Program-made: the position numbers and the translations under genes
Source of the DNA: Gemmatimonadota bacterium
GTDB lineage: Bacteria; Gemmatimonadota; Gemmatimonadetes; Palauibacterales; Palauibacteraceae
Direction of reading: 5' to 3'
NCBI GenBank assembly: GCA_046757885.1
Contig: JBHHZD010000002.1
Location: 37,494-101,493, forward strand
Length of the DNA stretch: 64,000 nt
Shown here: positions 17,193 through 58,980 of the stretch, in pieces
Layout of the letters: the number at the start of each line of letters is the position of its first letter
Numbering within the stretch: the stretch's first letter is position 1
Notes under the pieces: model-generated
The model's input: only the letters and a program-made list of their open reading frames with translations
Told to the model about the DNA's origin: nothing
The model's database searches: none

Positions 17193-17199
17193 GAACCCC

Positions 17200-29900: not shown

Positions 29901-29930
29901 CGATGGCCTCTATCCGTTGCTCAACGCCGG

Positions 29931-31771: not shown

Positions 31772-32003
31772 CCGTCTTCCTTCGCTCGATGCCGCTGTGC
31801 CGGGAATGGCCGGCCTGCCCGTTCGCGCACGGGAGTGGTCGTCGCACCGCACGGACCCTGCCACGTGCGGGAGAGCCGCGCGCCGCGGCTTTTTCGCCCG
31901 CCCCCGGAGGCGATTGCAGAATGTGTGGCGTACGCTCAACATACAGGGGTCCGGACCCGTGGCTCAAGCGCCGAATCGCCCCGCGAGCGCGTACCGGGAG
32001 CCC

Positions 32004-32015: not shown

Positions 32016-32079
32016 AACTTACGCCTTCCAACCCCACGCGCGGCGGGCGCTAGCGCACACCTTGCTCCGATGCGGCGAC

Positions 32080-33735: not shown

Positions 33736-34160
33736 CCGGCGCCAGGCGGGAGAGGGGCGCCACGCCCCCCGGCCGGGAGAGCGTTCGGTTCCGAAGGGGG
33801 CCGGCCATCTCCGTCGTGGTCGTCTCGACCGGAGACGCGACGCGCCTCCGGTCGTGCATCGGGGGACTGCGGCCCCAGTGCGAGGAGCACGACGCCGAGC
33901 TCATCGTCGTGACGACCGCCCCGGGGAGCGAGGTCGAGGCGCTCGTCCGCTCGCATCCGTGGGTCCGGTTCGTCAGCGCGGAGGCGGGAAGGACGCTGGA
34001 GGACCTGAAGTCGGACGGGATGGCGGCCACGACGGGCGACGTCGTCGGCATCCGGACGGACGAAACGGACGTGCCGGACAACTACGTGCTCTGCCTCACC
34101 GGGGCCCCGAGGGCGGCCCGGCGGGCCGACGCGGAAACGCTGCATCAGGAAGGCGGGTGA
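33732..34160 (+). CDS. Short GT2-like N-terminal-domain protein (truncated third paralog of 29931..31771; possible gene remnant)
   Basis: ISVVVVSTGDATRLRSCIGGLRPQCEEHDAELIVVTT aligns with the N-termini of the two tandem GT2-like genes but stops after about 142 aa. GTG at 33732 with GTGA overlap. Confidence 0.35.
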   Translation: MTGARRERGATPPGRESVRFRRGPAISVVVVSTGDATRLRSCIGGLRPQCEEHDAELIVVTTAPGSEVEALVRSHPWVRFVSAEAGRTLEDLKSDGMAATTGDVVGIRTDETDVPDNYVLCLTGAPRAARRADAETLHQEGG

Positions 34161-34180
34161 CGCGTGGAGGCTCGAGACCT

Positions 34181-39087: not shown

Positions 39088-39097
39088 GGCGGACACC

Positions 39098-39841
39098 GTG
39101 CGCGCGATCCTCATGTATCATTCGATCGACTCCTCCGGCTCGCCCATCTCCGTGGACGTGGCCGCTCTGCGGCGCCACGCGGAGTGGCTCGCCGCCGCGC
39201 CCGTACGCGTGACCGGCCTGGCGGACCTGGTGGAGGGCCCGGCCGAGGAGGACGCCATCGCCATCACGTTCGATGACGGTTTCGAGAACTTCCGGAGCGT
39301 CGCGTGGCCGATCCTGCGCGGCCACGGGATCCCGGTCACCCTGTTCATCGTCACGGACCACGTGGGGAGCGACAATCGGTGGGGAGGCCGGCGTCAGCAC
39401 GGGATCCCCACGCTGCCCCTCCTGGGCTGGGACGCGCTCGGCGAACTGGCCGAGGAGGGCGTCCGCCTCGGGTCGCACACCCGCTCGCACCCGCATCTGC
39501 CGGCCCTCCCCCCCGAGGCTCTCCAGGAAGAGCTGGCGGGCTCGGCCGACCGGCTGGCCATGGAGACCGGCCGGCGGCCGGAGGCGTTCGCCTATCCGTA
39601 CGGATCCGTGGACGGTCGGTCGGCGCGGGCCGTGCGCACCCTCTACCGGTACGGATGCACGACGGAGCTGCGCTGCGTCGAGCGATCGGAGTCCGCGGAG
39701 CGGCTCCCGCGCCTCGACATGATCTACTTCCGGTACCCGGGCCGGCTCGAGACCTGGGGCGGGAAGGCGTTCGCTCGCCGGCTGCGGTTTCGCCGCGCGG
39801 CCAGGCGAGTGCGACGCGCCGTGCTCGGAGGCGGAACGTGA
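39098..39841 (+). CDS. Polysaccharide deacetylase (CE4)
   Basis: GTG start. ITFDDGFEN... TLFIVTDH... HTRSHPHL. Confidence 0.7.
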   Translation: MRAILMYHSIDSSGSPISVDVAALRRHAEWLAAAPVRVTGLADLVEGPAEEDAIAITFDDGFENFRSVAWPILRGHGIPVTLFIVTDHVGSDNRWGGRRQHGIPTLPLLGWDALGELAEEGVRLGSHTRSHPHLPALPPEALQEELAGSADRLAMETGRRPEAFAYPYGSVDGRSARAVRTLYRYGCTTELRCVERSESAERLPRLDMIYFRYPGRLETWGGKAFARRLRFRRAARRVRRAVLGGGT

Positions 39842-40953
39842 GCCCGGCGCCCCTGCTGTCCGTCGTGGTACCGAGCCATCAGGGAGCCGACATCCTCCCG
39901 GATACGCTCGCGGCCCTCCGCCGGAGCGATCTGGACGTGCATCGATGGGAACTCATCGTCGTGGACGACGCGAGCACGGACGACACGTCCCTCGTCGCGG
40001 CCCGCTACGCGGACACGGTCCTCCGCCTGCCCGGACGGCCCCACGGCCCGGCCTACGCCCGCAACCGGGGCTTCGAGGTCTCGCGAGGCGATGCCGTCGT
40101 GTTCATCGACGCCGACGTGCGGGTCCACCCGGACACCCTCCGTCGGTTCGCCACCGTCCTCGAACGGGAGCCCGAGATCAGCGCCGTGTTCGGCTCGTAC
40201 GACGCCGAACCCGCGGCGCCCGGGCTCGTATCGCAGTATCGCAACCTGCTCCACCACTACGTTCACCAGCAGAGCGCCGGCGAGGCCGAGACGTTCTGGG
40301 CGGGCTGCGGGGCCATCCGCGCCGATGTCTTCCGAAGCGTCGGCATGTACGACGAGTGGCACTTCCCCGCCCCGCAGATCGAGGACATCGAGCTGGGTCG
40401 GAGACTCCGGCTTCAGGGCCACCGCATCGTCCTGCGGCCGGAGATCCAGGCGACACACCTGAAGAAGTGGTCTCTGCGGAACGTGCTCACGACGGACTTC
40501 GTGAGCCGCGGCGTGCCGTGGACGCGGCTCATCATCCAGGAAGGGCCGTCCGCGGCCGGCAACACGCTGAACGTGCAAAGCGCGCAGAAGTGGTGCACGG
40601 CGCTCGTGGGCCTCGGGGCCATCGGACTCATCGTCTCGGCGCTCGGACGTTCCTGGTGGCCCCTTCTCGCGACCGCCGCCTCGGCGGGAGCCGTCCTCGG
40701 AATCAACTTCGGCTTCTATCAGCTCCTCCGCCGGCAGAAGGGCGCGTGGTTCGCGCTCGCCTCGCTGCCGCTGCATCTCATCTATTACGTGAGCGCCGGC
40801 CTGTCCGCGGTCATCGGCTGGCTCGCCCACACCCTGTTCGGGGCGCCCACGCCGCCCCCGGACGTCGCGGCCTTCTCGGAGGTCGGCATCGAGACCTGGC
40901 CGCCCATCCCGTCGCGGCCGAGACAGAGCATTTGGAACACGCATGAGGGATGA
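39838..40953 (+). CDS. GT2 family glycosyltransferase with C-terminal TM helices
   Basis: GTGA overlap. LSVVVPSHQG... LIVVDDASTDDT... FIDADV, with three or four C-terminal TM helices. Confidence 0.75.
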   Translation: MSPAPLLSVVVPSHQGADILPDTLAALRRSDLDVHRWELIVVDDASTDDTSLVAARYADTVLRLPGRPHGPAYARNRGFEVSRGDAVVFIDADVRVHPDTLRRFATVLEREPEISAVFGSYDAEPAAPGLVSQYRNLLHHYVHQQSAGEAETFWAGCGAIRADVFRSVGMYDEWHFPAPQIEDIELGRRLRLQGHRIVLRPEIQATHLKKWSLRNVLTTDFVSRGVPWTRLIIQEGPSAAGNTLNVQSAQKWCTALVGLGAIGLIVSALGRSWWPLLATAASAGAVLGINFGFYQLLRRQKGAWFALASLPLHLIYYVSAGLSAVIGWLAHTLFGAPTPPPDVAAFSEVGIETWPPIPSRPRQSIWNTHEG

Positions 40954-41332
40954 AGCCATGAACGGCATCGATCGAGAGACGGAGGAGGCCCTGTCGGGGC
41001 AGCTCGCGCTCGCATTCGGCCCTCTTCACAAGCGGGCCCTCGGACTCGCGGTGGGCACGGCGAGCGGTGCGATCGTCTTCCTCCTGACCGTCTTCCACGT
41101 GGTCGTGCGGCCCGACCCGGCGCCGCAGATCGGCCTGTTGCGGGAGTACTTCACGGGCTACACCGTGTCCTGGCCCGGCGCCGTCGTCGGAGGCCTGTGG
41201 GCGTTCACGGTCGGGTTCTTCGTGGGCTGGTTCATCGCCTTCGCGCGGAACCTCGTCATCGCGACCTCGATCTTCATCACCCGAACCCGTCAGGAGCTCG
41301 CCGCCACCCGCGACTTTCTGGACCACATCTGA
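40943..41332 (+). CDS. Small 2-TM membrane protein, tandem paralog A (unknown family)
   Basis: 129 aa; alternative ATG at 40958. Shares the motif LLxEYFTGYTVSWPG with the next ORF, and has two hydrophobic helices. Confidence 0.4.
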   Translation: MRDEAMNGIDRETEEALSGQLALAFGPLHKRALGLAVGTASGAIVFLLTVFHVVVRPDPAPQIGLLREYFTGYTVSWPGAVVGGLWAFTVGFFVGWFIAFARNLVIATSIFITRTRQELAATRDFLDHI

Positions 41333-41352
41333 CCGACCTGGAGGCCGAACCG

Positions 41353-41637
41353 ATGAGAGAGCGAGAAGAGGAGCTCCAGACCGCGATCCGGAGGCTGAAC
41401 GCGCGGGCCTGGGGCATCGCGATGGGATGCCTCCTGGGAGGGGGGCTGTTCGTCGCGACGAACGTGCTCGTGTTGAAGGGCGGGCCGCGGGTCGGGGCGC
41501 ATCTCGGACTCCTGGCCGCCTACTTCCCGGGCTATCGGGTGAGCTTCGTCGGGAGCCTGATCGGCTTCGTCTACCTGTTCGTCATCGGGTACGCGATCGG
41601 CAGGCTCATCGGCACGGTCTACAACCGGCTCGTGTGA
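41353..41637 (+). CDS. Small 2-TM membrane protein, tandem paralog B
   Basis: 94 aa. LLAAYFPGYRVSFVG plus two TM helices. Its stop overlaps the GTG of the UbiA-family gene. Confidence 0.4.
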   Translation: MREREEELQTAIRRLNARAWGIAMGCLLGGGLFVATNVLVLKGGPRVGAHLGLLAAYFPGYRVSFVGSLIGFVYLFVIGYAIGRLIGTVYNRLV

Positions 41638-42515
41638 GCGAAACCGTGGCAGACTGGCTGAGGCTCCTCCGCCCGCGGCAGTGGGTGAAGAACTTCTTCG
41701 TCCTCGCGCCGCTCCTGTTCTCGGGCCGCGCGACCCGGGCGGAGGCCGTCGTTCCGGCCCTTCTCGCGTTCGCCGCGTTCTGTCTCCTGGCGAGCGGCGT
41801 GTACGCCCTCAACGACGTCGCCGATCGGGAGGCGGATCGGCTTCACCCCACGAAGCGTCTGCGGCCCGTCGCCTCCGGGCGCATCTCCCCGCGGGCCGCG
41901 GCCTCGGCCGGCATCCTCCTGCTCCTGATCGCCCTCGGCATCGCCTGGAGCGTGCACGCCACCGTGGCTCTCATCGCGGCCGCCTACGTGGTCCTGAACG
42001 CCGCGTACACGATGAAGCTCAAGGATCTCGTCATCCTGGACGTGTTCTCCATCGCCGCCTTCTTCCTCCTCCGGCTGCTCGCGGGGGCCGCGAGCGTGGA
42101 CGTGCGGCCGTCGATCTGGCTTCTCCTCTGCGGCGGACTCCTGGCCCTCTATCTCGGGTTCGCGAAGCGAAGGCACGAGATCGTCCTGCTCGGCGATGAG
42201 TCGGCGGACCACCGGAGCGTGCTCGTCCACTACAGCCCCGTCTTTCTCGATCAGATGTCCGTGGTCCTGCTGTCGGTCACGATCGTCTCCTACATCATGT
42301 ATTCCATCTCCTCGGAGACCGCGGCCGCCGTGGGTTCCGAGGCGCTCGCCTACAGCACGGTCTTCGTCCTGTACGGCGTCTTCCGGTACCTGTTTCTCGT
42401 CCATCAGCACGACGCGGGCAGCCCCACCGAGACCCTGCTCACGGATCGGGCCCTGATCGCGAACGTGCTCCTGTGGCTCCTCTACTGCGGCTGGGTGCTC
42501 TATCGGCCGTTCTGA
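41634..42515 (+). CDS. UbiA-family prenyltransferase, decaprenyl-phosphate phosphoribosyltransferase (DPPR synthase)-like
   Basis: NDVADREADRLHPTK (the UbiA NDxxDxxxD motif) early in TM2, then about 8 TM helices. 293 aa, the size and layout of Rv3806c-type enzymes. Confidence 0.7.
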   Translation: MSETVADWLRLLRPRQWVKNFFVLAPLLFSGRATRAEAVVPALLAFAAFCLLASGVYALNDVADREADRLHPTKRLRPVASGRISPRAAASAGILLLLIALGIAWSVHATVALIAAAYVVLNAAYTMKLKDLVILDVFSIAAFFLLRLLAGAASVDVRPSIWLLLCGGLLALYLGFAKRRHEIVLLGDESADHRSVLVHYSPVFLDQMSVVLLSVTIVSYIMYSISSETAAAVGSEALAYSTVFVLYGVFRYLFLVHQHDAGSPTETLLTDRALIANVLLWLLYCGWVLYRPF

Positions 42516-42522
42516 CCGCCTC

Positions 42523-43914
42523 GTGACGCGGAACTTCCTCGCCCTCGGATCGGGCGAGGCGGCGGCGCGAATCGTCGCCTTCGCGGCGACCGTGTACATC
42601 GCGCGCGTGCTCGGAAGCGAGGCGTTCGGCATCATCGGGTTCGCCCTGGCCGTCATCCTGTACCTGAACCGGATCGCGGACGCGGGACTGGAGCTCGGGC
42701 TCGGCGTCCAGCTCATCGCGGAAGATCCGGACCGCATCGAGTCGATCGCCCCGTCCCTCCTCACGGCCCGCGTGCTTCTGGCCGCCCTGCTCGCGGCCGG
42801 CCTCGCGGTCCTCGGGCTCGTGGTGTTCCCCGGCGCGGAGGGGAGCGTGCTCGCGCTGTACGGGCTCACCCTGCTCGCCGTGGGCGCGGGGTCCCGATGG
42901 ATCCTGTTCGGGCTCGAGCGGACGCGATTCGTCGCGGGGGCCCGGACGGCCGGCGAGCTCGTCATGGTCGGGCTCGTGTTCTGGCTCGTCCGGACCCCCG
43001 AGGACCTGAAGGCGGTTCCCCTGGCCCAGTTCGCGGGCGACGCGCTGGCGGCGCTCGCCTTCCTGTGGTGGCTCGGCCGGCTCGGGCATCGACTGCGTCC
43101 GCGGCTGGATGCGGCGGCGATCCGTCCGCTCCTCCGGCGGGCGGCGCCCCTCGTGGGGTCCGCGCTCCTGGGCCTGATGATCTACAACTCGGACCTCATC
43201 TTCCTGCGGGCATTCCGCGGGCTGAGAGCGGTCGGACTCTACGCGGCCGCCTACGCGCTCATCAGCTTCCTGAGCAACCTGGGGACCGCCTACAGCATGA
43301 GCCTCCTGCCCACCCTGACGCGGCTCGGCGGCGAGCCCCGGGACCGGCTCGATCTGTACCGGACCGCCACCGTCCACGTCTTCGCGGCCGGTTTCCCGAT
43401 CGCGGTGGGCACCACGGTCCTCGCGCCGGGGATCATCCGCCTCGTGTTCGGGGACGGCTACGCGGGCTCGGCCCTGCCCCTCCAGATCCTCATCTGGTCC
43501 GTGACCCTGGCCCTCCTGCGGGACGTCCCGGTCGTGGCGCTCATGTCCGAGGGTCGGGAGGACAGGGTGCTGCGGCTCACGGCCTGGGCCACGGCCGCGA
43601 ACCTCACCCTGAACGTGGCCGTGATCCCCGCCTTCGGCCTCGTCGGAGCCGCGGCGGCCACCGTGGCCACGGAAGGGACCCGGATGGCCCTGGCGCGCCG
43701 CGACGCGACCCGTCTCGGATTCACGGCGCCGGGGGCGGGCCGCCTGGCGCCTCCGGCGATCGCGGGGCTCGTGATGGGAGGCGCGCTGGTGCTCGGGCCG
43801 GCGGCGCCCGTGTGGCTCGCGGTACCCGCGGGCGTCGTCGTCTACGCGCTGGGCCTCCTGGCCCTGGGGGGTGTGCGTGTCCGGCGGGGCGGGCGCCCGA
43901 GCCTCGAGTTGTGA
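42523..43914 (+). CDS. Wzx-like flippase (polysaccharide biosynthesis protein, MOP superfamily)
   Basis: 463 aa with about 12 TM helices. N-terminus LALGSGEAAARIVAFAATVYIARVLG typical of Wzx/RfbX. Confidence 0.7.
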   Translation: MTRNFLALGSGEAAARIVAFAATVYIARVLGSEAFGIIGFALAVILYLNRIADAGLELGLGVQLIAEDPDRIESIAPSLLTARVLLAALLAAGLAVLGLVVFPGAEGSVLALYGLTLLAVGAGSRWILFGLERTRFVAGARTAGELVMVGLVFWLVRTPEDLKAVPLAQFAGDALAALAFLWWLGRLGHRLRPRLDAAAIRPLLRRAAPLVGSALLGLMIYNSDLIFLRAFRGLRAVGLYAAAYALISFLSNLGTAYSMSLLPTLTRLGGEPRDRLDLYRTATVHVFAAGFPIAVGTTVLAPGIIRLVFGDGYAGSALPLQILIWSVTLALLRDVPVVALMSEGREDRVLRLTAWATAANLTLNVAVIPAFGLVGAAAATVATEGTRMALARRDATRLGFTAPGAGRLAPPAIAGLVMGGALVLGPAAPVWLAVPAGVVVYALGLLALGGVRVRRGGRPSLEL

Positions 43915-44826: not shown

Positions 44827-44859
44827 GGCAGCCGGGTAACCCCCAACCGTGAGGGCAAG

Positions 44860-45555: not shown

Positions 45556-45571
45556 TCCGGAGGGCCCCGAC

Positions 45572-50964: not shown

Positions 50965-52131
50965 TCACGCCTCGGGCGGCGCCGCGGACGCGCCGTCCTC
51001 GATCGGAAGGCCCTCGCCGTCGATGCGAATCGGGACGTGGTCGGCGGGATCCAGCGGACGCGGCCGCCTCCAGACCCTTCCCCCGACCATGGCGCGCGCC
51101 GCCCAGCCCGGATTGTAGGCGATGCTCGACCACAGGAAGACCTCGGTCGTGCAGTGGCATCGCCTCGCGGCCACGTGGGCCCGCAGCTCGTCGGTCCGGG
51201 GGGAGTTCCAGATCTCGGGGAAGGTCTGCTCGCGCAGGTTGCCGAGCGGCGTGTGCATCTCGCACAGCGACACGTCTCCGTTCGCGTACACCACGCCCGT
51301 GAGCCGACCCGCCCGGCAGGGAACGACCTGGCGGTTCTCCTTCATCGTCCTGACCTTCGCCCACTGGAGCATCGGCTCCACGGCCGCGCCGTAGCGACCC
51401 TCCTCGCGAGGGGCCCACAGACGGCGGATGTACGCGTACAGCTCCTCGTAGCGGTGCTGGAGGGGGGCCTCGAGCCCGGGATTCTTCCGGTCGCCCCGGA
51501 TCACGGCCAGGTTGTGGTGGTCCATCTTCGGACACCGCTCGTACAGGTAGGTCGTGAGGCGGCGGATCTCGTCCATGTTCACGTCGGTGGCGGTCGAGAT
51601 CGCGTGGATCCGGAGCCGGGCATCGCTCTCCTGAAGCGTCGCCAGCGCATCGTAGGACTCCATGGCGCGTCGGAACGAGTTCCGCGCGACCCGGAACGTG
51701 TCGTGAAACTCGGGCATGCCGTCCAGCGAGAGCTCGACGACGAACAGGTCGAGACCCGGTTCCTCCAGCGTCTCGCCCACCTGCTTCACGATGCGGTCCG
51801 GAAAGTACCCGTTCGTCGGCACGTAGATCTGGCCGACCCCGTTGTGGCGGATGAACTGGCGGCAGATCTCCGAGAACTCCTTGCGCAGGAACGGCTCGCC
51901 GCCCGAGAGGTTCAGGTTCTCGACCGGCCCGAGAGAGCGGGAGAGCTCGAAGATCTCGTCCTTCGTCAGGTCGTCCTTGCCGTTCAGGCTTCGCCAGTAG
52001 AAGCAGTGCTCGCACTTCATGTTGCAGAGCGAGTTGATGAACAGGATGAGGAAGGGCGGCGTCGGAGGCGTCTGATAGCCCTTCCGAAGGATCCGGAGCC
52101 TGCGGCGGGTGCTCTCCAGCCTGTTCGGCAT
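50965..52131 (-). CDS. Radical SAM enzyme with C-terminal Cys-rich (SPASM/twitch-like) auxiliary-cluster domain
   Basis: CNMKCEHC (CxxxCxxC) and the GGEP motif (LSGGEPFL); C-terminal Cys at VVPCRAG... SLCEMH... RRCHCT. I placed the start at the ATG at 52131, which has a GAGG Shine-Dalgarno 9 nt upstream; an alternative ATG lies at 52146. Confidence 0.7.
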
Positions 52132-52203
52132 GCGGCGAAACCTCATCCCCGCGCACGCGGGGGGACGTCGGGTGCTCCGATACCAGCCTACATCAACGTC
52201 GTA

Positions 52204-53700
52204 TCAACCTGCAACTGTCGTGCCGGGCGTGTCCCCGTCGGCCGATGCGGGCCAGCCGCGCCACAGGAGCCACAGGAGGACGCCCACGACGGCGAACACG
52301 GGGAGCGGGGAGGCCCCGTCCGCCAGGTACGGCGCGTAGGCGCCGGCCGTCTTCCGCAGGACGGTGAGCCAGGGAAGCTCGAACCCGCCGAGCAGCACGT
52401 GCGCGAGGGAGGTGGGCACGGATTCCCGCGCCATCGCGACGCTCCACGAGATGACGACGGTCGGCAGGACGACGAGGACCCTGAGAACCCCGGGCGTCCG
52501 AAGAAGGACGGGCACGAGCGCCAGGTACAGCAGGGGGACGGCCGGGACCAGGTAGCGCACACCCGTGTTGAACTGGAGCCGGGCGAACTGGATCGAGCTC
52601 GCGAACACGAGGAGCGCGCCCGTCGCCACGAGGGCGAAAGCCACCCCCGCCGGGCCGGGATCGCCGGGACGGCGCCGCAGCCACGGCGCCGCGACGGCCA
52701 GCGCGAGCATCGGACAGAACGCGAGGAGCCCGAACCGGGGATCCAGGAGATTCCGCCACAGGAGGTCGGGTGCCGGCGCCGTGATCCCGTGCCAGCCACG
52801 GACGCTGAACGGCGTCGCGGGCATGTAGCTCTGCGCGGGCAGCCACGGATTCCCGAACGCCCGCCACTGGTATCCGAACAGGAGGAGAAGGGGGCCCGCC
52901 GCTCCCAGCGCGAACCAGGCAGCCGAGCGCAGGGCCCGGCGCGGGCCGCCGGCCCGCCAGCCGTCGGCCATCGTCCACACGCCGAATGCTGCCGCGAGCG
53001 GCGCGGCGCTGTAGTCCGTCAGCAGGGCCAGGCCCAGGAGCGCCCCGACGCCCGCGAGCCTCCGCGGTCCCCGGGCACCCGCCCGCCTCTCCGGATCGAC
53101 GCCCAGCATCGCCACGAAGGCGAACAGCACGAGGTGCGCCACGATCGCATTCTGGTTCAGGAACGCGGACCGGAAGAAGATCGGCGTGCCGAAGGCGTAC
53201 AGAAGCGCCAGCCAGAGGGCACGCCTCTCCCCGACACGGGCGCGCAGGAACAGGAAGACGAGAACGGCCGCCAGGCCTCCGAGGGGCGCCATGAGCCCGA
53301 CCTGCATGCTCGCCGCCGCGAGCCCGAGCTTCACGTCCAGCCCCCGCGCTCGCGCCTCGTTGAAGAAGCGCGTCCGGTTGGGGCGCGGATCGTCGTAGGT
53401 GCCGGGCGGCTTCGGCCGCGCGAGCTCCGGCCGGGCCGCGAACAGGATCGCGACGAACGGCCGCGAGAGGGCGTACGGGACCGCGCCGAGCAGCGAGGCG
53501 CCCGGATTGTTGTTGACGTAGACGCCGCGCCCCGGGACGCGGAACAGGTCCGGGTGGAGGCCCTCGTAGGCGTCCACGCGCAGGGACGGCCCGTCACCGA
53601 GCGCCACGGCGAGATACGTCTCGCGCACGACGTTGGACGCGAAGTGCGCCCCGTACACGAGCCACACGGTCAGGAACAGGCGTCTCGCGGTTCCCGTCAC
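52204..53700 (-). CDS. Polytopic membrane protein, possible GT-C-fold glycosyltransferase
   Basis: GTG at 53700, directly after the upstream stop. About 12 TM helices with a periplasmic-type loop YVNNNPGASLLGAVPY. The ORF is open further upstream but overlaps the FAD-oxidoreductase gene. Confidence 0.5.
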   Translation of the reverse strand: MTGTARRLFLTVWLVYGAHFASNVVRETYLAVALGDGPSLRVDAYEGLHPDLFRVPGRGVYVNNNPGASLLGAVPYALSRPFVAILFAARPELARPKPPGTYDDPRPNRTRFFNEARARGLDVKLGLAAASMQVGLMAPLGGLAAVLVFLFLRARVGERRALWLALLYAFGTPIFFRSAFLNQNAIVAHLVLFAFVAMLGVDPERRAGARGPRRLAGVGALLGLALLTDYSAAPLAAAFGVWTMADGWRAGGPRRALRSAAWFALGAAGPLLLLFGYQWRAFGNPWLPAQSYMPATPFSVRGWHGITAPAPDLLWRNLLDPRFGLLAFCPMLALAVAAPWLRRRPGDPGPAGVAFALVATGALLVFASSIQFARLQFNTGVRYLVPAVPLLYLALVPVLLRTPGVLRVLVVLPTVVISWSVAMARESVPTSLAHVLLGGFELPWLTVLRKTAGAYAPYLADGASPLPVFAVVGVLLWLLWRGWPASADGDTPGTTVAG

Positions 53701-53702: not shown

Positions 53703-55124
53703 TCAGTCCTCCACCACGTGGGTGTCGAAGATCGCACGGCGTGCCGCCCACAGCGCCGGATCCACGCGGCCATCGCGCAGGCACTCGACCGCGCTGTAGG
53801 CCATGAACAGCGCGTGGTGCGTGTTGTCGTGTGCGAACAGCCCCTGCCGCCCGAAGGTGAGGAGGCCGGGGAGGTCCGTGGCCCACGCGTCGAGGCGCGC
53901 GAAGGAAGCCTCGTATCCCCTCCCGTAGATCGGGTAGGCGTGGCGGAGGCGCCGGACCGTGACGCCGATGGGTGGATCCGGCGGCCCGATCCCTGCCCGC
54001 TCCAGGTCCGCCATCACCCGGTCTCCGAGGGCCTCGTCCTCGAGGCTCCACACGTCGTCGTCCGGGGCGCACGGGAGCTCCGCGCACAGGGTCGTCCGGC
54101 CCCGCGGCTCGTCGAGATTCGCGTAGTTCTTCGTCTCGGAGAGCCGGGTGACCGTCACGTCGGGGCCCGGGAAATAGTGGGCGTCGTATTCCGTGAACCG
54201 GTCCACGGGGAGCGTCAGATAGACGAGGAGCATCGCCCGGTAGTCGATGCTCGCGGCCGCCTGCCGGACCTCCTCGGGGGGCTCCGGCCGGGTGATCCCC
54301 GCCAGGGCGGTGATCGGAATCGTGGACCACACGGCGTCGGCCTCGATCTCCCGCGGACCGCCCTCCCCCTCGGCGCGAACCCGCCACACGCCCCCGCCGT
54401 CGGGCCGCTCGAGCGCCGTGACCCGCTCGCCGAGCCGGATCTCCGCCCCCACCTGCCTCGCCGCCTCCGCATAGGCCTCGCAGATCGCCCCGAAGCCGCG
54501 CCTCGGATAGAAGAAATGGCTGAATCCCACGGCCGGGACGCCCGGAATCCGGCCCAGGACCTTGCGGGCGAGCTTGCCGGGGGAGTTCGCCGCGACGCGC
54601 CGGTGCGCCTGCGTGGCGGAGAGCTCCTCGGGCGCCCTGCCCCAGATCTTCCGCGCGTACGGGAAGTAGAAGCGCTCGCAGATCGTCGGCCCGAGGCGCG
54701 CCAGGAGCACCGAGGCGAAGGACTCCTCGGGTCCGCGTCCCTGACCCACCAGGCGCCCGACCGCGTCCCGCGCCGCCCCGAGGGCGAACGAGGGATCCAG
54801 CCGGAGGAGGAGGTCCAGGGGGCGGAGGGGAAACCGGATCCACCGCCCGTCGAGCCGGATCCGGCCGTGTCGGGGCCGCGTCAGCAGCTCCCCGCCCAGC
54901 AGCTCGCGGATGTCCGCCATGATCCCCGGCTCGCAGGCCGGGTGGAGCCGGTGGCTCCCGAAGTCCACTCGCTGGCCGGCCACGTCGAACGAGCCGGCGT
55001 TCCCGCCGACCACGGTCTTCTGCTCCAGGACCGTCACGGCCGCGCGGTTTCCGGTCCTCAGCCGGAAGGCCGCGCCCAGTCCGGCCGGCCCCGCGCCGAG
55101 GATGACGATGCGGGGCTCAGACAT
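53703..55124 (-). CDS. NAD(P)/FAD-dependent oxidoreductase (amine-oxidase/protoporphyrinogen-oxidase-like), paralog of 34181..35662
   Basis: RIVILGAGPAGLGAAFRL... VLEQKTVVGGNAGS dinucleotide-binding motif. 473 aa. Confidence 0.7.
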   Translation of the reverse strand: MSEPRIVILGAGPAGLGAAFRLRTGNRAAVTVLEQKTVVGGNAGSFDVAGQRVDFGSHRLHPACEPGIMADIRELLGGELLTRPRHGRIRLDGRWIRFPLRPLDLLLRLDPSFALGAARDAVGRLVGQGRGPEESFASVLLARLGPTICERFYFPYARKIWGRAPEELSATQAHRRVAANSPGKLARKVLGRIPGVPAVGFSHFFYPRRGFGAICEAYAEAARQVGAEIRLGERVTALERPDGGGVWRVRAEGEGGPREIEADAVWSTIPITALAGITRPEPPEEVRQAAASIDYRAMLLVYLTLPVDRFTEYDAHYFPGPDVTVTRLSETKNYANLDEPRGRTTLCAELPCAPDDDVWSLEDEALGDRVMADLERAGIGPPDPPIGVTVRRLRHAYPIYGRGYEASFARLDAWATDLPGLLTFGRQGLFAHDNTHHALFMAYSAVECLRDGRVDPALWAARRAIFDTHVVED

Positions 55125-56103
55125 AGCGGCGTCGGGCCCGACCGAGCGCCCGGAGGGACGTCGGCTCCCCGGCGCGATCAGCGGCTCCGCTCCACCGTCC
55201 GAGCGCGAGCCACAGCCCTCCCGCGATCAGGCCCCCGGCGATGAGAATCGACTGCCAGACGAGGGAAGCGACGACACCGGTGGCCATCGGCACGCCGAGC
55301 GGCACGAGGATCGCTCCGAGCGTCGCGTCCCGCACCCCGAGGCCTCCGAGGCTCACCGGGAGGAGTCCGGCGGCCTTGGCGAGCGGCCAGGCGAGGAACC
55401 AGGCCCCCAGCGGCACGTCGATCCCGAGAGAGCGGCCGATCCACGCGTTCAGGAGGACGAAGCCCGACTGCATGGTCAGCGAGATCGCGAGCGCGGCGAG
55501 CGCCGTGGACGGGCTCCGGGCGAGACGTCTTGCGCCGACGAGCGCCCGGCCGATCGGCCGGCGCAGGCGGGCGGGCCATCGGCGCAGCGGCCTGCGGGCC
55601 GCGAGGATCAGCGTGAGCGACGCCGCGGCGACGCCGGCCAGGAGGGCGAGGGTGACCGCGCTCGCTACCTTGGCCGGCAGGGCGCCCCTGGCGAGGATCC
55701 CGCCCGACGCGATGAGCAGGGCGAGGACGGCGACATCGACGAGCCGGTCCCCGATCCCCCCCAGCACGGCGGCCTCCGCCCGGCGGGTCTCTCGGGCCGC
55801 GAGCGCCGCCCTCAGGACGTCGCCGCCCACGATGCTCGGGAGGCAGAGATTCGCGAACAGGCCCGCGGCGTAGAAGCGGATCGCCTGCACCGGGGTGAGG
55901 AGGCAGCGGCCGGCGCGAAGGAGCATGCGCCACTTCGCGGCCCCGAGCCTGTGACCGGCCAGGAAGGCCGCCAGCGCCCCGAGCCACACCCAGGGCCGCA
56001 TCCGTCCGGCCGCGTCCCGCACGTCGCTCCAGGGCAGGAGGAGGACGAGGGCGGCCAGCACCGCGAGGGTCACGAGGACCCGGACGATCACGCGGACCCT
56101 CAT
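55117..56103 (-). CDS. Lysylphosphatidylglycerol-synthase TM-region-like (flippase-like) membrane protein, paralog of 22801..23775
   Basis: About 8 TM helices with the conserved LPSIVGGDVLRA motif (cf. LPSTIGGDTVRG in the paralog). Confidence 0.55.
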   Translation of the reverse strand: MRVRVIVRVLVTLAVLAALVLLLPWSDVRDAAGRMRPWVWLGALAAFLAGHRLGAAKWRMLLRAGRCLLTPVQAIRFYAAGLFANLCLPSIVGGDVLRAALAARETRRAEAAVLGGIGDRLVDVAVLALLIASGGILARGALPAKVASAVTLALLAGVAAASLTLILAARRPLRRWPARLRRPIGRALVGARRLARSPSTALAALAISLTMQSGFVLLNAWIGRSLGIDVPLGAWFLAWPLAKAAGLLPVSLGGLGVRDATLGAILVPLGVPMATGVVASLVWQSILIAGGLIAGGLWLALGRWSGAADRAGEPTSLRALGRARRRYV

Positions 56104-57017
56104 CGGTGCATCGCGATCCTGGCGTTCTGGTCCGCGAGCAGGCCCACGGCCCAGATGATGAGAGCCCCGAGGAACGCGAGGACCGCGCTCTCGGACAGGT
56201 TGTCCCGGGTCACGTCGTAGACGAACTTCGCCGCCCCGGCCACGGCCAGGACCCCTCCGATCGGGATGAACACCTTGAGGGGATTGAAGAACACGATCGT
56301 GCGCAGGATGAGCAGCGTGAACTCATACGCGTGCCACGGCCGGATCTTCGAGGCCCCCAGGCGGGCGTGGTAGTCGATGGGCACATACGCGACGGGGTGG
56401 CCGTTGCACGCGGCCGAGAGCGTGATCGTCGTCGTGAACGAGAAGCCGGACGGCAGGAGGTGCACGTAGCGCTCGATGAGATCGCGGCGCATGAGACGCA
56501 GGCCGGAATTCAGGTCGGGCAGCGCCTGCCCGGCCAGGTAGCTCGCGAGCCAGCGCAGGAAGCTCTTGGCCGGACGTCGGAGCAACGGGATCTTCACGGA
56601 CTCCCCCGTGCGGGCCCCCACAACCATGTCGTGGTCTGCGGCGCGCTCGAGGAGGGCGGGGATCGACTCGGCGGGATAGGTTCCGTCCGCGTCGGTGATG
56701 AGGATCCAGTCGTACCGGGCAGCCTCGATCCCCCGCTTCAGGGCGGCCCCGTACCCCAGGTTCCTTCGGTGGCGAAGGACGCGCACGCCCGCCGCGGCGG
56801 CGGCCTCTCCCGTTCCGTCGGACGAGCCGTCGTCCACGACGATGACCTCGTACCGCCACGGGCAACCGTCCAGCACGTTCCGGACCGCCTCGATCCCGGC
56901 CGCGACGTGCGTCGCCTCGTCGTACGCCGGGATCACGACGGAAACGGCTCGCTCGTATCGCGGACCCTCCGTCTCCGCCACGAGCTCCACATCCGGCTTC
57001 GCGACCTCTCTCTCCAT
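56100..57017 (-). CDS. GT2 DPM1-like polyprenyl-phosphate sugar transferase
   Basis: VSVVIPAYDE... VIVVDDGSSDGT... ITDADGTYP, with a C-terminal TM region. ATG at 57017; an alternative GTG at 57041 has a GTGA overlap with the upstream gene. Confidence 0.7.
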   Translation of the reverse strand: MEREVAKPDVELVAETEGPRYERAVSVVIPAYDEATHVAAGIEAVRNVLDGCPWRYEVIVVDDGSSDGTGEAAAAAGVRVLRHRRNLGYGAALKRGIEAARYDWILITDADGTYPAESIPALLERAADHDMVVGARTGESVKIPLLRRPAKSFLRWLASYLAGQALPDLNSGLRLMRRDLIERYVHLLPSGFSFTTTITLSAACNGHPVAYVPIDYHARLGASKIRPWHAYEFTLLILRTIVFFNPLKVFIPIGGVLAVAGAAKFVYDVTRDNLSESAVLAFLGALIIWAVGLLADQNARIAMHR

Positions 57018-57037
57018 GGGCTCCGCCTCGGTTCCGG

Positions 57038-58798
57038 TCACGTGCGCTCCTTCAGGAGTACGACGATCGAGCCCCCCCGGACAGTCCCCGGGAATTCCGC
57101 CGCCGGACGATACTCGCCCTCCAGACGCCTCCAGAGGTCGGGGTGGACGGCGGCGAGCCGTGTGGGGAACGTGTACAGGACCCACGTCCGGGCATGGGCT
57201 GCCTCGAGACGATCGAGGTCGGCGGCGTCCCGAATCGACGCCCAGCCCGCGCGCAGGTAGGCCCGGTAGGGCAGATCGGTCATGTCGACGGTGGCGACCG
57301 CGTCTTCGGGCCTGCGCCTGGCCTCCACCCAGGCCCGGGCTCCGTCGTAGTCCTGCTTCGGCCGCCAGGCCCCGGGAAGCGCGGGGAGGCTCGCGGCGAT
57401 CAGGGCCACGCCCGCCCACGTGACGATCGTCGCCCGGCGGCGGTCGCCGGCTCGGCCCGGGACCAGGGCGCCGAGGACGAACAGGCCCCGCATCACGATG
57501 AGCGCCGCGGCGCCCGCCGAGAAGAAGAAGAAGCGGGGCCACAGATTGTGGCCCGTCGCCAGGATGGCGGCCGCCGTCGCGACCGCCGGGAGGACGAGGA
57601 CCGCCGTCACGGCGCGTCCGCGGCGCCAGAATCCGGCCAGTCCGGCCGCGCCGACGATCCCCGCGGCGGCCAGGCCCACGAGCCCTCCCGGAAGCGCCGC
57701 CGCGAGGCCGCGCGCCGTCTCCGCCAGGAGCCAGGCCGGATTCTGCCAGACCACGTTCACGTCCGCCATCGTGGGCTCGGTCAGCGTCCCGACGAGCTGA
57801 GGCAGCACGAGGGCGTACAGCTGAAGCGACAGCGTGGCGGCGAGACCCAGGCCGACGCCGGTGCGGACGAAGGCACGACGGGCCGGCGGATCCGCCCCCC
57901 GCCCGGCCGCCGTTCCGAGCCAGATGAGGCCGTGCGCGAGCACGACGAGCACGGCCGTGAGGTGCGTGTAGACCGCGAGGGCCATCGTGACGGCGTACCC
58001 GACCGCCGGTCCCCAGCCGCTCGGCTCACGCGCCTCCAGCAGGCGAACGAACAGCCCGGAGCCGACGAGGGTGAAGAACAGCAGGCCGGTGTATCCGCGG
58101 GCGTTCTGGGAGAACCACACGTGGTGGTACGAGAACGTGAGGAACGCGGCTGCGAGTAGCGCCTCGCGCCGTCCGGCCACGATCCGGCCGAACCACCAGA
58201 CCGCCCAGATGCTCGCCACCCCGAACGCGGCGGCCGGCAGGCGCAGCGAGGACGCCCCCTCCCCCAGCGCCGAGACCGAGCCCCGGGCGAGAAGCGAGAA
58301 CAGGACGTGCTGGTTCTGGCTGTCCAGGGTGGAGATCAGGCGTCCGAGCGGAAGCCGCACGTGTTGCGCGAGGGTCGCGATCTCGTCGAACCACAACCCG
58401 TCCCCGAGGTCGTGGAGTCGGAGGGCCGCCGCGGCCACGAGCAGCGCCGCGACCAGCAGTCGCTCGGCCACGTGGCCGACCTCCGGCACGGCTACGGGGC
58501 GGCGGAGTCGAGGGCCTTCCTCTCCGAGCTGCACCCGGCCCAGCACGGCGAGGATCCCGGCGTGCACGAGAAGGAGGGCCTTGAACAGCCACAGCCCCGT
58601 GACGAGGTTGGGTGGGGCCCCCGGATCCGACCCGGCGAGGAGGTCCGCCGTTCCCCGGACGGGGAGCAGGAGCGCGAGCGCCGCGACGGCGACCGCCGCG
58701 TACGATGTCCTTCGGGTCACGCGGGATTCCCTCGTCTCTCCGGCCTTCGCGCGGCCGGGTTGCTCTCTGGAACAACGATCGGAGTGACGGGAGGTCAT
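57038..58798 (-). CDS. GT-C fold membrane glycosyltransferase (PMT_2/ArnT-like)
   Basis: ATG at 58798. First loop LHDLGDGLWFDEIATL (DE motif), at least 11 TM helices, C-terminal soluble domain. Confidence 0.6.
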   Translation of the reverse strand: MTSRHSDRCSREQPGRAKAGETRESRVTRRTSYAAVAVAALALLLPVRGTADLLAGSDPGAPPNLVTGLWLFKALLLVHAGILAVLGRVQLGEEGPRLRRPVAVPEVGHVAERLLVAALLVAAAALRLHDLGDGLWFDEIATLAQHVRLPLGRLISTLDSQNQHVLFSLLARGSVSALGEGASSLRLPAAAFGVASIWAVWWFGRIVAGRREALLAAAFLTFSYHHVWFSQNARGYTGLLFFTLVGSGLFVRLLEAREPSGWGPAVGYAVTMALAVYTHLTAVLVVLAHGLIWLGTAAGRGADPPARRAFVRTGVGLGLAATLSLQLYALVLPQLVGTLTEPTMADVNVVWQNPAWLLAETARGLAAALPGGLVGLAAAGIVGAAGLAGFWRRGRAVTAVLVLPAVATAAAILATGHNLWPRFFFFSAGAAALIVMRGLFVLGALVPGRAGDRRRATIVTWAGVALIAASLPALPGAWRPKQDYDGARAWVEARRRPEDAVATVDMTDLPYRAYLRAGWASIRDAADLDRLEAAHARTWVLYTFPTRLAAVHPDLWRRLEGEYRPAAEFPGTVRGGSIVVLLKERT

Positions 58799-58911
58799 CA
58801 GGCAATGTCCGTTCCAGAACTCTCCGCCGGGCGGGGCGCCCTTCGATGGCGCGGAATCCGGGTGACGCCGGGCGGGCGAGCCGTCTGGAGGGCCCGCGCG
58901 CCGGGGCCGCG

Positions 58912-58925
58912 GGCCCACGTGTTGC
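58912..58925 (+). promoter_or_regulatory. Sigma-54-like -24/-12 element GGGCCCacgtgTTGCG
   Basis: GG (58912-13) and GC (58924-25) 12 nt apart, about 56 nt upstream of the GTG at 58981. Confidence 0.35.
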
Positions 58926-58980
58926 GTCCGCGCCACAAGGTGCGCACCCGGCGCTCGAGCCGGCAACACGCGGCCCGCTC

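What the first reader, a model, noticed from the sequence alone, without database searches (positions are those of the whole stretch)
50965..52164. Radical SAM / SPASM-like enzyme embedded in a glycosylation locus with no visible precursor peptide; structured GC hairpin abutting its start
The CxxxCxxC and GGEP motifs plus a C-terminal 4-Cys auxiliary domain indicate a SPASM/twitch-type radical SAM enzyme. No small peptide ORF lies nearby, so a sugar substrate (BtrN/DesII-like dehydrogenation, deamination or C-methylation of a nucleotide- or lipid-linked sugar) or maturation of a neighbouring protein (anSME-like) is more likely than RiPP chemistry. Its composition (Lys/Glu/Asn-rich, lower GC) differs from its neighbours, hinting at acquisition. 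A perfect hairpin ccccgcg-cac-gcgggg (52147-52164) lies between the upstream stop and the start region.
Basis: partly seen in the sequence, partly recalled or inferred. Interest (0 to 1): 0.6.

Follow-up and report, generated by a model that had tools for sequence, protein, structure and literature searches.

The report
Sugar-pathway radical SAM enzyme, uncharacterised family
This is a real iron-sulfur "radical SAM" enzyme gene at the end of a cell-surface sugar operon; it belongs to a very conserved, unnamed family that almost always travels with (and in relatives is fused to) glycosyltransferases, so it most likely modifies a sugar by a reaction not yet known, while the hairpin next to it is ordinary.

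Summary
The ORF is real. The CDS is 50965..52131 (-), 388 aa, probably starting at the second ATG. It has CX3CX2C, SGGEP and a C-terminal 4-Cys twitch domain (one auxiliary cluster, not a full 7-Cys SPASM).

No NCBIfam/TIGRFAM family is reached: best NirJ2, 70 bits against a cutoff of 500. It is therefore not HemW, QueE, MoaA or NirJ.

It is the last gene of a six-gene operon: GT-C, ArnC/DPMS-like GT2, flippase-like LPG_synthase_TM, UGM-like flavoprotein, GT-C, rSAM. The whole 64-kb window is glycan biosynthesis.

Orthologues are 62-75% identical across at least six phyla and collapse into one 50%-identity cluster. In 80 species loci the commonest neighbour is a GT2 (55/80 within 7 kb, 37 adjacent on the same strand). 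Six relatives at 33-37% identity are GT2-rSAM fusion proteins, one in a Wzm/Wzt O-antigen-type cluster. There is no RRE domain and no conserved small ORF.

Best reading: a glycan-pathway radical SAM enzyme acting on a nucleotide- or polyprenyl-phosphate-linked sugar. The chemistry is unresolved.

The hairpin is real but at chance frequency and not conserved. The lower GC comes from amino-acid composition (GC3 0.93), not recent acquisition. The DegT-partner idea is unsupported.

The parts
50965..52131 (-). Radical SAM / twitch enzyme CDS (388 aa; stop codon 50965-50967)
   Evidence: ORF. Pfam Radical_SAM and SPASM hits. 100% identical to P0001, 388 aa. Homologues align from this Met.
52144..52146 (-). 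Upstream in-frame ATG, an alternative start that would add 5 residues; probably not used
   Evidence: Sequence. Homologues and the NCBI gene call start at the second Met.
52141..52144 (-). Shine-Dalgarno-like GAGG, 9 nt before the 52131 ATG
   Evidence: Read directly from the sequence.
52003..52026 (-). CX3CX2C (C36, C40, C43): ligands of the radical SAM [4Fe-4S] cluster
   Evidence: Sequence. Invariant in A1 and at least 90% conserved in A2.
51892..51906 (-). SGGEP, the GGE-type SAM-binding motif on beta-strand 2
   Evidence: Sequence. Invariant in A1.
51151..51318 (-). Twitch auxiliary-cluster domain: C272-x12-G-x4-C290 ... C325-x-C327
   Evidence: Pfam SPASM hit at residues 277-332. The four Cys align with the SkfB twitch Cys. 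They are invariant across the broad family.
52147..52162 (.). GC hairpin CCCCGCG-CA-CGCGGGG in the 72-nt spacer; a chance-level feature
52204..53700 (-). GT-C-type membrane glycosyltransferase (weak PMT_2 hit), immediately upstream. Its GTG start follows GGAGG and abuts the flavoprotein stop.
   Evidence: Orthologues of 59-69% identity lie in the same cassette in other loci.
53703..55124 (-). FAD flavoprotein, PRK07208 / amine-oxidase fold. Its closest solved relatives are UDP-galactopyranose mutases.
55117..56103 (-). LPG_synthase_TM, a flippase-like membrane protein
56100..57041 (-). GT2 polyprenyl-phosphate-sugar synthase-like protein (ArnC / Dol-P-Man synthase / GtrB-like). Its GTG start overlaps the upstream stop (GTGA).
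57038..58969 (-). Second GT-C (PMT_2) membrane protein, first gene of the operon; start uncertain
28842..31942 (-). GFO/IDH/MocA oxidoreductase plus a tandem pair of MftF/EpsD-like GT2 genes. These are the window's members of the GT2 group that is normally adjacent to the rSAM elsewhere.
35673..43914 (+). Block GT4-GT4-epimerase/dehydratase-deacetylase-GT2-two small TM proteins-UbiA-MOP flippase. Apart from UbiA (within 10 kb in 3 of 80 loci), this block is syntenic with the rSAM in other phyla.

Best explanation
The gene encodes a soluble radical SAM enzyme. It carries one SAM-cleaving [4Fe-4S] cluster and one fully Cys-ligated auxiliary cluster in a twitch domain. It belongs to an unnamed family dedicated to glycan biosynthesis.

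Shown:
- It is the terminal gene of an operon. The upstream genes have overlapping or abutting stops and starts: GT-C, ArnC/DPMS/GtrB-like GT2, flippase-like protein, UGM-like flavoprotein, GT-C.
- Its orthologues are embedded in glycosyltransferase clusters in many phyla.
- More distant family members are fused to a GT2 domain.

Inferred:
- The 5'-deoxyadenosyl radical abstracts a hydrogen from a C-H of a sugar that the partner GT2 makes or transfers, either an NDP-sugar or a polyprenyl-phosphate-sugar on the cytoplasmic face.
- The modified sugar is then flipped and installed by the GT-C enzyme.
- The rSAM is far more conserved than its GT partners (62-75% against about 31%). I therefore favour a small invariant sugar donor as substrate, rather than the variable polymer.

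Among chemistries, I rank a BtrN/anSME-type two-electron oxidation to a keto-sugar first, at about 0.3. The reasons are that the auxiliary cluster has four invariant Cys, which fits an electron conduit rather than a substrate-binding site, and that the broad family has no invariant extra Cys to act as H-donor. Redox-neutral rearrangement or epimerisation and decarboxylation or dehydration come next.
For: Motifs and domains.

Fold: the AF2 model has pTM 0.79. Foldseek hits are all SPASM/twitch enzymes, including the sugar-acting BlsE, DesII, BtrN and SpeY.

No curated family is reached, for the query or for relatives.

Operon anatomy and partner identities.

Neighbourhoods:
- 80 species-level loci across Gemmatimonadota, Chloroflexota, Acidobacteriota, Cyanobacteria, Planctomycetota, Binatia and Deltaproteobacteria.
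- A GT2 lies within 7 kb in 55 of 80 loci and is adjacent on the same strand in 37. Of 51 loci with at least 3 kb on both sides, 39 have it and 28 have it adjacent.
- The cassette GT2-LPG_TM-flavoprotein-rSAM-GT-C recurs in about 17 loci.

Fusions: six independent GT2-rSAM proteins (P0149, P0155, P0173, P0184, P0186, P0225). P0273, a cluster-mate of P0225, lies beside Wzy_C, Wzm/Wzt and GT4 genes; P0186 lies beside GT4, GT2 and a second rSAM. A 30%-identical homologue in Parabacteroides distasonis sits next to a lipid-glycosylation GT.

No RRE domain (the core starts at about residue 28) and no conserved small ORF.

ArnD shows that cytoplasmic enzymes do modify Und-P-sugars before flipping (established knowledge of the Arn pathway).
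Against: - No member of this family has been characterised, so the substrate and reaction are inferred only from context.
- Structural and sequence similarity is equally strong to peptide-modifying enzymes: SkfB is the best hit, followed by anSME, CteB and SuiB.
- In this window the gene is separated from the GT2 pair that usually flanks it, and a 72-nt gap precedes it.
- Gene order differs from most cassettes: here it is GT-C then rSAM, elsewhere rSAM then GT2/GT-C.
- The AF2 model is only moderate (pLDDT 75), with low confidence around the cluster loops, so no active-site inference was possible.
Confidence: 0.62

Rival explanations
1. Carbocycle-forming or ring-contracting enzyme. The rSAM would convert a glycosylated, possibly de-N-acetylated, hexose on a lipid or glycan into a cyclitol-type unit. 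HpnJ is proposed to do this after HpnI/HpnK, PtmC after PtmJ/PtmG, and calditol synthase Cds on hexose-GDGT.
For: The triad GT + polysaccharide deacetylase + rSAM recurs: a deacetylase lies within 7 kb in 19 of 80 loci, and the window's copy is at 39098-39841. One GT4 in the block resembles MshA/BshA/GlcNAc-PG synthase-type enzymes. The precedents are described in PMC13459092 and PMC9092360.
Against: HpnJ and PtmC are, from my own knowledge, cobalamin-binding-domain rSAMs, and none is present here. No sequence comparison with Cds could be run. The deacetylase is absent from most loci, and in this window it is about 10 kb from the rSAM. No carbocyclic sugar is known from these phyla.
Confidence: 0.1
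2. Lipid-directed enzyme. The rSAM would modify the polyprenyl carrier or a membrane-lipid acceptor rather than the sugar.
For: It co-occurs with a polyprenyl-P-sugar synthase-like GT2, LPG_synthase_TM, GT-C proteins and a UbiA DPPR synthase. SPASM/twitch rSAMs such as Tes, Gms and Hbs act on lipids. Relatives give weak Tes hits, far below cutoff.
Against: The model shows no membrane segment. The fusions and the commonest neighbours are non-carrier GT2s of MftF/EpsD type. UbiA lies within 10 kb in only 3 of 80 loci. Tes scores are 44-62 bits against a cutoff of 450.
Confidence: 0.12
3. Peptide or protein maturase. The gene would be a RiPP enzyme (SkfB-like) or an anSME-like activator of a neighbouring enzyme such as a sulfatase-family protein, the metallophosphoesterase or CotH.
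For: The best sequence and fold matches are SkfB and anSME. A sulfatase-family protein is near the orthologue in 11 of 80 loci, and an FGE-sulfatase domain protein lies next to one fusion. Lasso-peptide-like genes sit about 5 kb upstream in one Anaerolineae locus.
Against: There is no RRE or N-terminal extension. No conserved small ORF occurs in 80 loci. Only one auxiliary cluster is present, where anSME has two. The sulfatase-family neighbour lacks C/S-x-P-x-R, and these neighbours are present in only a minority of loci. The GT2 fusions are hard to reconcile with a protein substrate.
Confidence: 0.07
4. Housekeeping cofactor enzyme (NirJ/AhbC/AhbD heme pathway, MoaA, HemW or QueE) that merely happens to lie in the island.
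For: The top NCBIfam rows are NirJ2, NirJ, AhbC and MoaA. JGI's automatic names include 'AdoMet-dependent heme synthase'.
Against: All scores are far below the curated cutoffs: 69.6 against 500 for NirJ2 and 53.8 against 284 for MoaA. The glycan context is conserved across phyla. The gene is patchy and accessory: 281 relatives were confirmed in a scan of 185,579 species genomes with patterns that find only close relatives.
Confidence: 0.02

Closest known systems
SkfB (sporulation killing factor maturase, PDB 6EFN), a twitch radical SAM
   Same: It is the best sequence match (E=3e-8) and the best fold match (E=6e-12). It shares the CX3CX2C motif, and the same four twitch Cys positions align.
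   Different: SkfB has an N-terminal peptide-recognition domain of about 100 residues and acts on a precursor peptide. Here the core starts at about residue 28 and no precursor exists. Identity is only 18%.
Sugar-acting twitch-type radical SAM enzymes: BtrN (2-DOIA dehydrogenase), DesII, BlsE (CGA decarboxylase), SpeY
   Same: They share a radical SAM core with a C-terminal auxiliary domain, act on a carbohydrate-type substrate in a biosynthetic cluster, and give Foldseek hits at E=1e-8 to 1e-5.
   Different: No specific sequence relationship was found: none appears in the phmmer/hmmsearch PDB hits. Those enzymes work on antibiotic intermediates. This family sits in envelope-glycan clusters and is coupled or fused to GT2.
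Gtr (GtrA/GtrB/GtrC) and Arn (ArnC/ArnD/ArnE-F/ArnT) lipid-linked sugar modification cassettes
   Same: The operon has an ArnC/GtrB-like GT2, a flippase-like membrane protein and a GT-C transferase. ArnD is a precedent for cytoplasmic tailoring of the Und-P-sugar.
   Different: No radical SAM enzyme and no UGM-like flavoprotein is part of Gtr or Arn. The flippase here is LPG_synthase_TM type, not GtrA or ArnE/F.
HpnI/HpnK/HpnJ, PtmJ/PtmG/PtmC and calditol synthase Cds
   Same: The logic is the same: a glycosyltransferase, optionally a deacetylase, then a radical SAM enzyme acting on the attached sugar.
   Different: HpnJ and PtmC carry a cobalamin-binding domain that is absent here. Comparison with Cds could not be run. 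The product here is unknown.
Mycofactocin MftC (rSAM/SPASM) with MftF (GT2)
   Same: A SPASM-group rSAM co-occurs with an MftF-like GT2. The GT2 domains of the fusions score best to MftF.
   Different: MftC scores 49.7 bits against a cutoff of 265. There is no MftA/MftB. MftF scores are also below cutoff.

Membership tests
Radical SAM superfamily (PF04055) | CX3CX2C motif providing three Cys ligands to a [4Fe-4S] cluster | tested here: met
   C36-x3-C40-x2-C43 lies at 52003-52026. It is invariant in 24 close homologues. Pfam gives 53.8 bits against a cutoff of 29.5.
Radical SAM superfamily (PF04055) | GGE-type SAM-binding motif and a partial (beta/alpha)6 TIM barrel | tested here: met
   SGGEP is invariant. 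The AF2 model shows six beta/alpha units, and its Foldseek top hits are radical SAM enzymes.
Radical SAM superfamily (PF04055) | Reductive cleavage of SAM to the 5'-deoxyadenosyl radical | not testable with these tools
   This needs an anaerobic biochemical assay.
SPASM/twitch subgroup | C-terminal CX9-15GX4C beta-hairpin motif and a PF13186 match | tested here: met
   C272-x12-G-x4-C290 is present. The SPASM hit is 41.7 bits against a cutoff of 21.5.
Full SPASM (two auxiliary clusters) | Seven-Cys motif including CX2CX5CX3C | tested here: not met
   Only C325-x-C327 follows the hairpin. There are four invariant Cys in all, which fits a twitch domain with a single auxiliary cluster.
RiPP maturases (SkfB/AlbA/CteB/SuiB type) | N-terminal RRE or peptide-binding domain, and an adjacent precursor peptide gene | tested here: not met
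   About 27 residues precede the core strand beta1 (E27-31), 35 before the first Cys. No conserved small ORF was found in 80 loci. SkfB HMM score is 36.6 bits against a cutoff of 300.
anSME (anaerobic sulfatase maturase) | Two auxiliary clusters, and a sulfatase partner with the C/S-x-P-x-R motif | tested here: not met
   Only one auxiliary site is present. No sulfatase lies in the operon. The sulfatase-family neighbour in other loci lacks the motif. The phmmer match to anSME is E=4e-3.
   NirJ2 scores 69.6 against 500, NirJ 59.7 against 515, AhbD 45.6 against 500 and MoaA 53.8 against 284. HemW and QueE are not among the 25 listed matches.
BtrN/DesII/BlsE-like sugar radical SAM enzymes | Specific sequence or fold relationship, and a nucleotide-sugar or aminocyclitol substrate | tested here: inconclusive
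   Fold hits exist (E=1e-8 to 3e-7, TM 0.4-0.6), but they are no better than those to peptide-acting members. The substrate cannot be tested here.
HpnJ/PtmC-type cyclitol-forming rSAMs | N-terminal cobalamin-binding domain (PF02310) with the rSAM core | tested here: not met
   The query has no B12-binding hit.
Calditol synthase (Cds) | Homology to Saci_1489 | not tested
   The sequence was not obtainable with these tools, and the paper (PMC6305003) is not held.
Unnamed GT2-associated twitch rSAM family (proposed here) | Signature LSLDG-x4-HD, R212-G, PCxAG...G-x4-CE, GNLR and CxCT(H/T)E, with a GT2 neighbour or fusion | tested here: met
   The signature is conserved in 23 diverse members at 31-64% identity. 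672 clusters at 50% identity score E<1e-30. GT2 adjacency or fusion is documented.

The most novel reading that the evidence does not exclude
The family catalyses a radical transformation of a lipid- or nucleotide-linked sugar that has not been described for envelope glycans. Candidates include carbocyclisation or ring contraction (HpnJ/Cds-like), or a one-step epimerisation or rearrangement of a polyprenyl-P-furanose made by the UGM-like flavoprotein and GT2. The result would be an unusual, conserved monosaccharide. Its pathway appears to have spread horizontally among soil Gemmatimonadota, Chloroflexota, Acidobacteriota and Cyanobacteria.
Probability: 0.25. Interest if true: 0.75.

Novelty: new variant of a known kind. 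Interest (0 to 1): 0.48.

Why it matters
Radical SAM enzymes that tailor sugars are known almost only from antibiotic pathways.

This is instead a large family: 672 clusters at 50% identity score E<1e-30. It has no curated family assignment, and I found no solved structure of a specific relative and no published characterisation. It is tied to glycosyltransferases by conserved adjacency across phyla and by six independent domain fusions.

Its tight orthologue group is 62-75% identical across at least six phyla. That level is unusual for polysaccharide genes and suggests an invariant small substrate.

Identifying the reaction would add a new step to bacterial envelope-glycan chemistry. It would also explain a module shared by abundant but poorly studied soil phyla.

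For this particular gene, the immediate result is more modest. The annotation 'radical SAM protein' can be sharpened to 'glycan-pathway twitch radical SAM enzyme, GT2-associated'. The hairpin and the acquisition hints can be dropped.

Tried and rejected
- Family assignment. NCBIfam/TIGRFAM on the query and on nine relatives, including fusions, reached no curated cutoff.
- PDB by sequence, single and profile: only SkfB, and weakly YydG/EpeE, MoaA, viperin and anSME.
- Extra catalytic Cys as an epimerase H-donor. C200 is invariant only in the tight subgroup and C90 is conserved in about 70% of members. Neither is invariant family-wide, so this was not used as evidence.
- Hairpin as a regulatory element: rejected on statistics, folding, Rfam, the terminator scan and lack of conservation.
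- Recent horizontal acquisition from GC content: rejected, because GC3 is native.
- DegT (15000-16205) as a DesI-like partner: it lies in a separate sub-cluster and is rarely syntenic.
- DPR-to-DPA epimerase replacement (UbiA DPPR synthase present, no DprE1/E2 seen). This was considered, but UbiA is within 10 kb in only 3 of 80 loci. It is kept only inside the novel case.
- Literature. Seven full-text searches found no characterised GT2-coupled twitch rSAM. The Brachyspira plasmid rSAM next to a glycosyltransferase (abstract listed) did not appear among the plasmid hits, so it is not a detectable relative.
- The calditol synthase paper was not held.
Full report
**1. The observation**

The minus strand carries an ORF at 50965..52146. 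Its translation contains:
- CNMKCEHC at 52003-52026;
- SGGEP at 51892-51906;
- near the C-terminus, C-x12-G-x4-C followed by CxC, at 51151-51318.

Pfam gives Radical_SAM (E=3.5e-14) and SPASM (E=1.5e-10), both above gathering scores. An identical 388-aa protein is on record from a Gemmatimonadota MAG.

The 388-aa form starts at the second ATG (52131). That ATG has a GAGG 9 nt upstream, and all homologues align from it. The real CDS is therefore 50965..52131.

The window is 71% GC.

**2. Hairpin and composition**

The hairpin exists: CCCCGCG-CA-CGCGGGG at 52147-52162, between the GT-C stop at 52204 and the start. It is not special, for these reasons:
- The window holds 107 perfect stems of at least 7 bp against 96+-13 in Markov simulations, and 22 all-GC stems against 22+-7.
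- The spacer folds no better than shuffles (z=+0.47).
- There is no terminator, promoter or Rfam match.
- Among 76 related loci only 4 have a stem of at least 6 bp upstream, fewer than at random positions.

The gene's GC is 0.673, below its operon neighbours (0.70-0.755). Its GC3 is 0.93, equal to theirs. Other conserved soluble enzymes in the window are equally low: epimerase 0.681, VTC 0.675, DUF4956 0.622. The dip reflects amino-acid composition, not foreign codon usage.

**3. What the protein is**

No NCBIfam/TIGRFAM family is reached. The best is NirJ2 at 69.6 bits against a cutoff of 500, and MoaA scores 53.8 against 284.

The closest solved protein is SkfB (E=3e-8). The four C-terminal Cys align with SkfB's twitch Cys.

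An AlphaFold model (pLDDT 75, pTM 0.79) matches SkfB, anSME, CteB, BlsE, SuiB, MoaA, DesII, PqqE, BtrN and EpeE with TM of about 0.4-0.6. That is the SPASM/twitch subgroup in general.

Only four auxiliary Cys are present, and they are invariant: C272, C290, C325 and C327. This is a twitch domain with one fully ligated auxiliary cluster, not a seven-Cys SPASM domain.

The core strand β1 starts at about residue 27 (first Cys at 36), so there is no RRE or peptide-binding domain.

**4. Surroundings in the window**

The gene is last in a minus-strand operon:

| Gene | Coordinates | Notes |
|---|---|---|
| GT-C / PMT_2 | 57038-58969 | start uncertain |
| GT2, closest to ArnC, Dol-P-Man synthase and GtrB | 56100-57041 | start overlaps the upstream stop as GTGA |
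| LPG_synthase_TM, flippase-like | 55117-56103 | |
| FAD protein of the PRK07208 group | 53703-55124 | best PDB matches are UDP-galactopyranose mutases |
| GT-C | 52204-53700 | GGAGG precedes its GTG start |
| rSAM | 50965-52131 | |

Downstream, convergent and 9 nt away, lies a metallophosphoesterase, preceded by CotH/beta-helix, TPR, DUF4956 and VTC genes.

The rest of the window is also glycan biosynthesis: GT2s, GT4s, epimerases, deacetylases, Wzy_C, MOP flippase, sulfotransferases, DegT, a polysaccharide lyase, a UbiA that passes the DPPR-synthase cutoff, and four PMT_2-like GT-Cs.

**5. Relatives elsewhere**

More than 3,000 homologues were found, and the best 120 all score above 600 bits. 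In 185,579 species genomes, 281 stretches encode a close relative. The 80 loci fetched come from Gemmatimonadota, Chloroflexota, Acidobacteriota, Cyanobacteria (including the cultured Pseudanabaena biceps O153), Planctomycetota, Rhodothermia, Binatia and Deltaproteobacteria, at 62-75% identity.

Identity to an Anaerolineae copy (71%) or a cyanobacterial copy (73%) equals that to other Gemmatimonadales. This implies horizontal spread plus strong constraint.

In the 50%-identity representative library the group collapses to one full-length representative. The next relatives are at most 41% identical, and 672 clusters score E<1e-30.

**6. Neighbourhood analysis**

ORFs within 7 kb in the 80 loci were clustered.
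- The commonest neighbour is a heterogeneous MftF/EpsD-like GT2 group. It occurs in 55 of 80 loci, is adjacent on the same strand in 37, and is often a tandem pair.
- The window's cassette (GT-C, GT2, LPG_TM, flavoprotein, rSAM, GT-C/GT2) recurs in about 17 loci. Usually the rSAM precedes the last transferase.
- A second recurrent block is GT4-GT4-epimerase-deacetylase-GT2-two small TM proteins-GT2-MOP flippase-rSAM, often followed by CysNC. In the window it is present at 35673-43914.
- The GT2 pair with a GFO/IDH/MocA oxidoreductase is at 28842-31942.

All the usual partners are thus in the window, but the rSAM sits with the lipid-linked-sugar cassette.

**7. Fusions**

Among relatives at 33-37% identity, six proteins carry an N-terminal GT2 domain fused to the rSAM/twitch module: P0149, P0155, P0173, P0184, P0186 and P0225. 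Most of these clusters have members on more than one contig.
- P0273, a cluster-mate of P0225, lies beside two Wzy_C genes, Wzm/Wzt (ABC2_membrane, ABC_tran, Wzt_C), GT4s and methyltransferases.
- P0186 lies beside GT4, a methyltransferase, GT2 and a second rSAM.
- A 37% relative lies among GT2, GT9, LPG_synthase_TM, PMT_2 and UDP-glucose dehydrogenase genes.
- A 30% relative in Parabacteroides distasonis is next to a lipid-glycosylation GT.

None of these relatives reaches an NCBIfam cutoff.

**8. Mechanism**

Shown: a radical SAM core, one 4-Cys auxiliary site, a soluble protein, operon membership, and conserved and fused association with GT2.

Inferred:
- The enzyme abstracts hydrogen from a sugar handled by the partner GT2.
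- The rSAM is much more conserved than the GT2s (about 31% among themselves). The substrate is therefore more likely an invariant donor (NDP-sugar or polyprenyl-P-sugar) than the variable polymer. ArnD is a precedent for tailoring a Und-P-sugar before flipping (established knowledge).
- A fully ligated auxiliary cluster, and the lack of any family-wide extra Cys, favour a BtrN/anSME-style oxidation. A redox-neutral reaction is next. A Cys-H-donor epimerase of the EpeE/NeoN type is less likely. I put dehydrogenation at about 0.3 and the general sugar-tailoring model at about 0.6.

**9. Rivals**

- RiPP or anSME-like maturation is unlikely. There is no RRE and no conserved small ORF (one search found only antisense shadow ORFs). 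Only one auxiliary cluster is present. The sulfatase-family neighbour seen in 11 of 80 loci lacks C/S-x-P-x-R.
- Lipid-carrier modification cannot be excluded, but it fits the fusions poorly.
- A cyclitol-forming role analogous to HpnI/K/J, PtmJ/G/C and Cds is an attractive minority reading, because GT + deacetylase + rSAM recurs. However, no B12 domain is present, and Cds could not be compared.

**10. Novelty**

The superfamily and the general idea of sugar-tailoring rSAMs are known. I found no curated family name, no solved structure of a specific relative and no paper for this GT2-coupled family in the searches run. I class it as a new variant of a known kind, of moderate interest.

Noticed in passing
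window 44098-50955 (+): A block VTC domain - DUF4956/MgtC-like - TPR - CotH kinase with right-handed beta-helix (1060 aa) - metallophosphoesterase lies convergent to the rSAM operon. Only 9 nt separate the two stop codons, and there is no terminator. CotH and the metallophosphoesterase are conserved beside the cassette in L008, L017, L042, L058 and L059.
   Followed up: partly
window 41427-42515 (+): A UbiA-family protein passes the curated cutoff for decaprenyl-phosphate phosphoribosyltransferase (255 bits against 234). It sits in a Gemmatimonadota locus that also has at least four PMT_2-like GT-C proteins (52204-53700, 57038-58969, 60816-62594, 62591-63841). No DprE1/DprE2-like gene was seen in the window. 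This suggests a polyprenyl-P-pentose donor pathway with an unknown epimerisation step.
   Followed up: partly
window 40958-41329 and 41248-41631 (+): Two paralogous small membrane proteins of about 100-125 aa and two TM helices have no Pfam match. They are conserved as a pair next to a GT2 in 16-17 of the 80 related loci. They might be a small flippase or synthase subunit pair, in the manner of ArnE/ArnF.
   Followed up: partly
P0149, P0155, P0173, P0184, P0186, P0225; loci L087, L088: Single polypeptides fuse an N-terminal GT2 domain to a C-terminal rSAM/twitch module. P0273, a cluster-mate of P0225, lies in a Wzm/Wzt (ABC-transporter) O-antigen-type cluster.
   Followed up: yes
loci L011, L028, L031, L038, L040, L043, L055, L082, L084, L086 (gene directly after the rSAM): A bifunctional CysN/CysC-like gene (sulfate adenylyltransferase plus APS kinase, i.e. 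PAPS supply) directly follows the rSAM in about 10 loci. The window itself has two sulfotransferases (C-terminal part of 499-2769, and 16209-17285). The glycan is probably sulfated.
   Followed up: no
window 12218-21153 (-): A separate EPS sub-cluster holds DegT aminotransferase, sulfotransferase, Acetyltransf_6 (FemAB-like), a DUF3473 polysaccharide deacetylase and GT2s. Nearby are a Wzy_C protein (7070-8584), an Ig-domain polysaccharide lyase (13476-14813) and a fused GFO/IDH/MocA-epimerase protein (8790-10976).
   Followed up: no
window 21120-23775 (+) and 33854-35662 (+): A glycerol-3-phosphate-oxidase-like flavoprotein (DAO + DAO_C) is followed by a second LPG_synthase_TM protein. Separately, a second PRK07208 flavoprotein passes its NCBIfam cutoff (697 bits against 389). 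It is a 29%-identical paralogue of the one in the rSAM operon.
   Followed up: no
L001/L014, 1-6343: In the Anaerolineae locus, lasso-peptide-like genes lie about 5 kb upstream of the rSAM, separated from it by three glycosyltransferases: Transglut_core3, Asn_synthase, an HPr-kinase-like/ScmC protein, an ABC transporter and NTP_transf_5. This was not seen in other loci.
   Followed up: partly
L090, 6063-12132: A 37%-identical relative sits divergently next to a PNP_UDP_1 nucleoside phosphorylase and near a B12-binding rSAM. The pairing recalls HpnG/HpnH or MqnB/MqnE, where adenosyl-radical addition is followed by nucleoside cleavage. This is a single observation.
   Followed up: no
window 31630-33735 (+) and 58612-60870 (+): Two long ORFs (701 and 752 aa) with coding-type GC3 have no Pfam match inside the glycan locus.
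   Followed up: no
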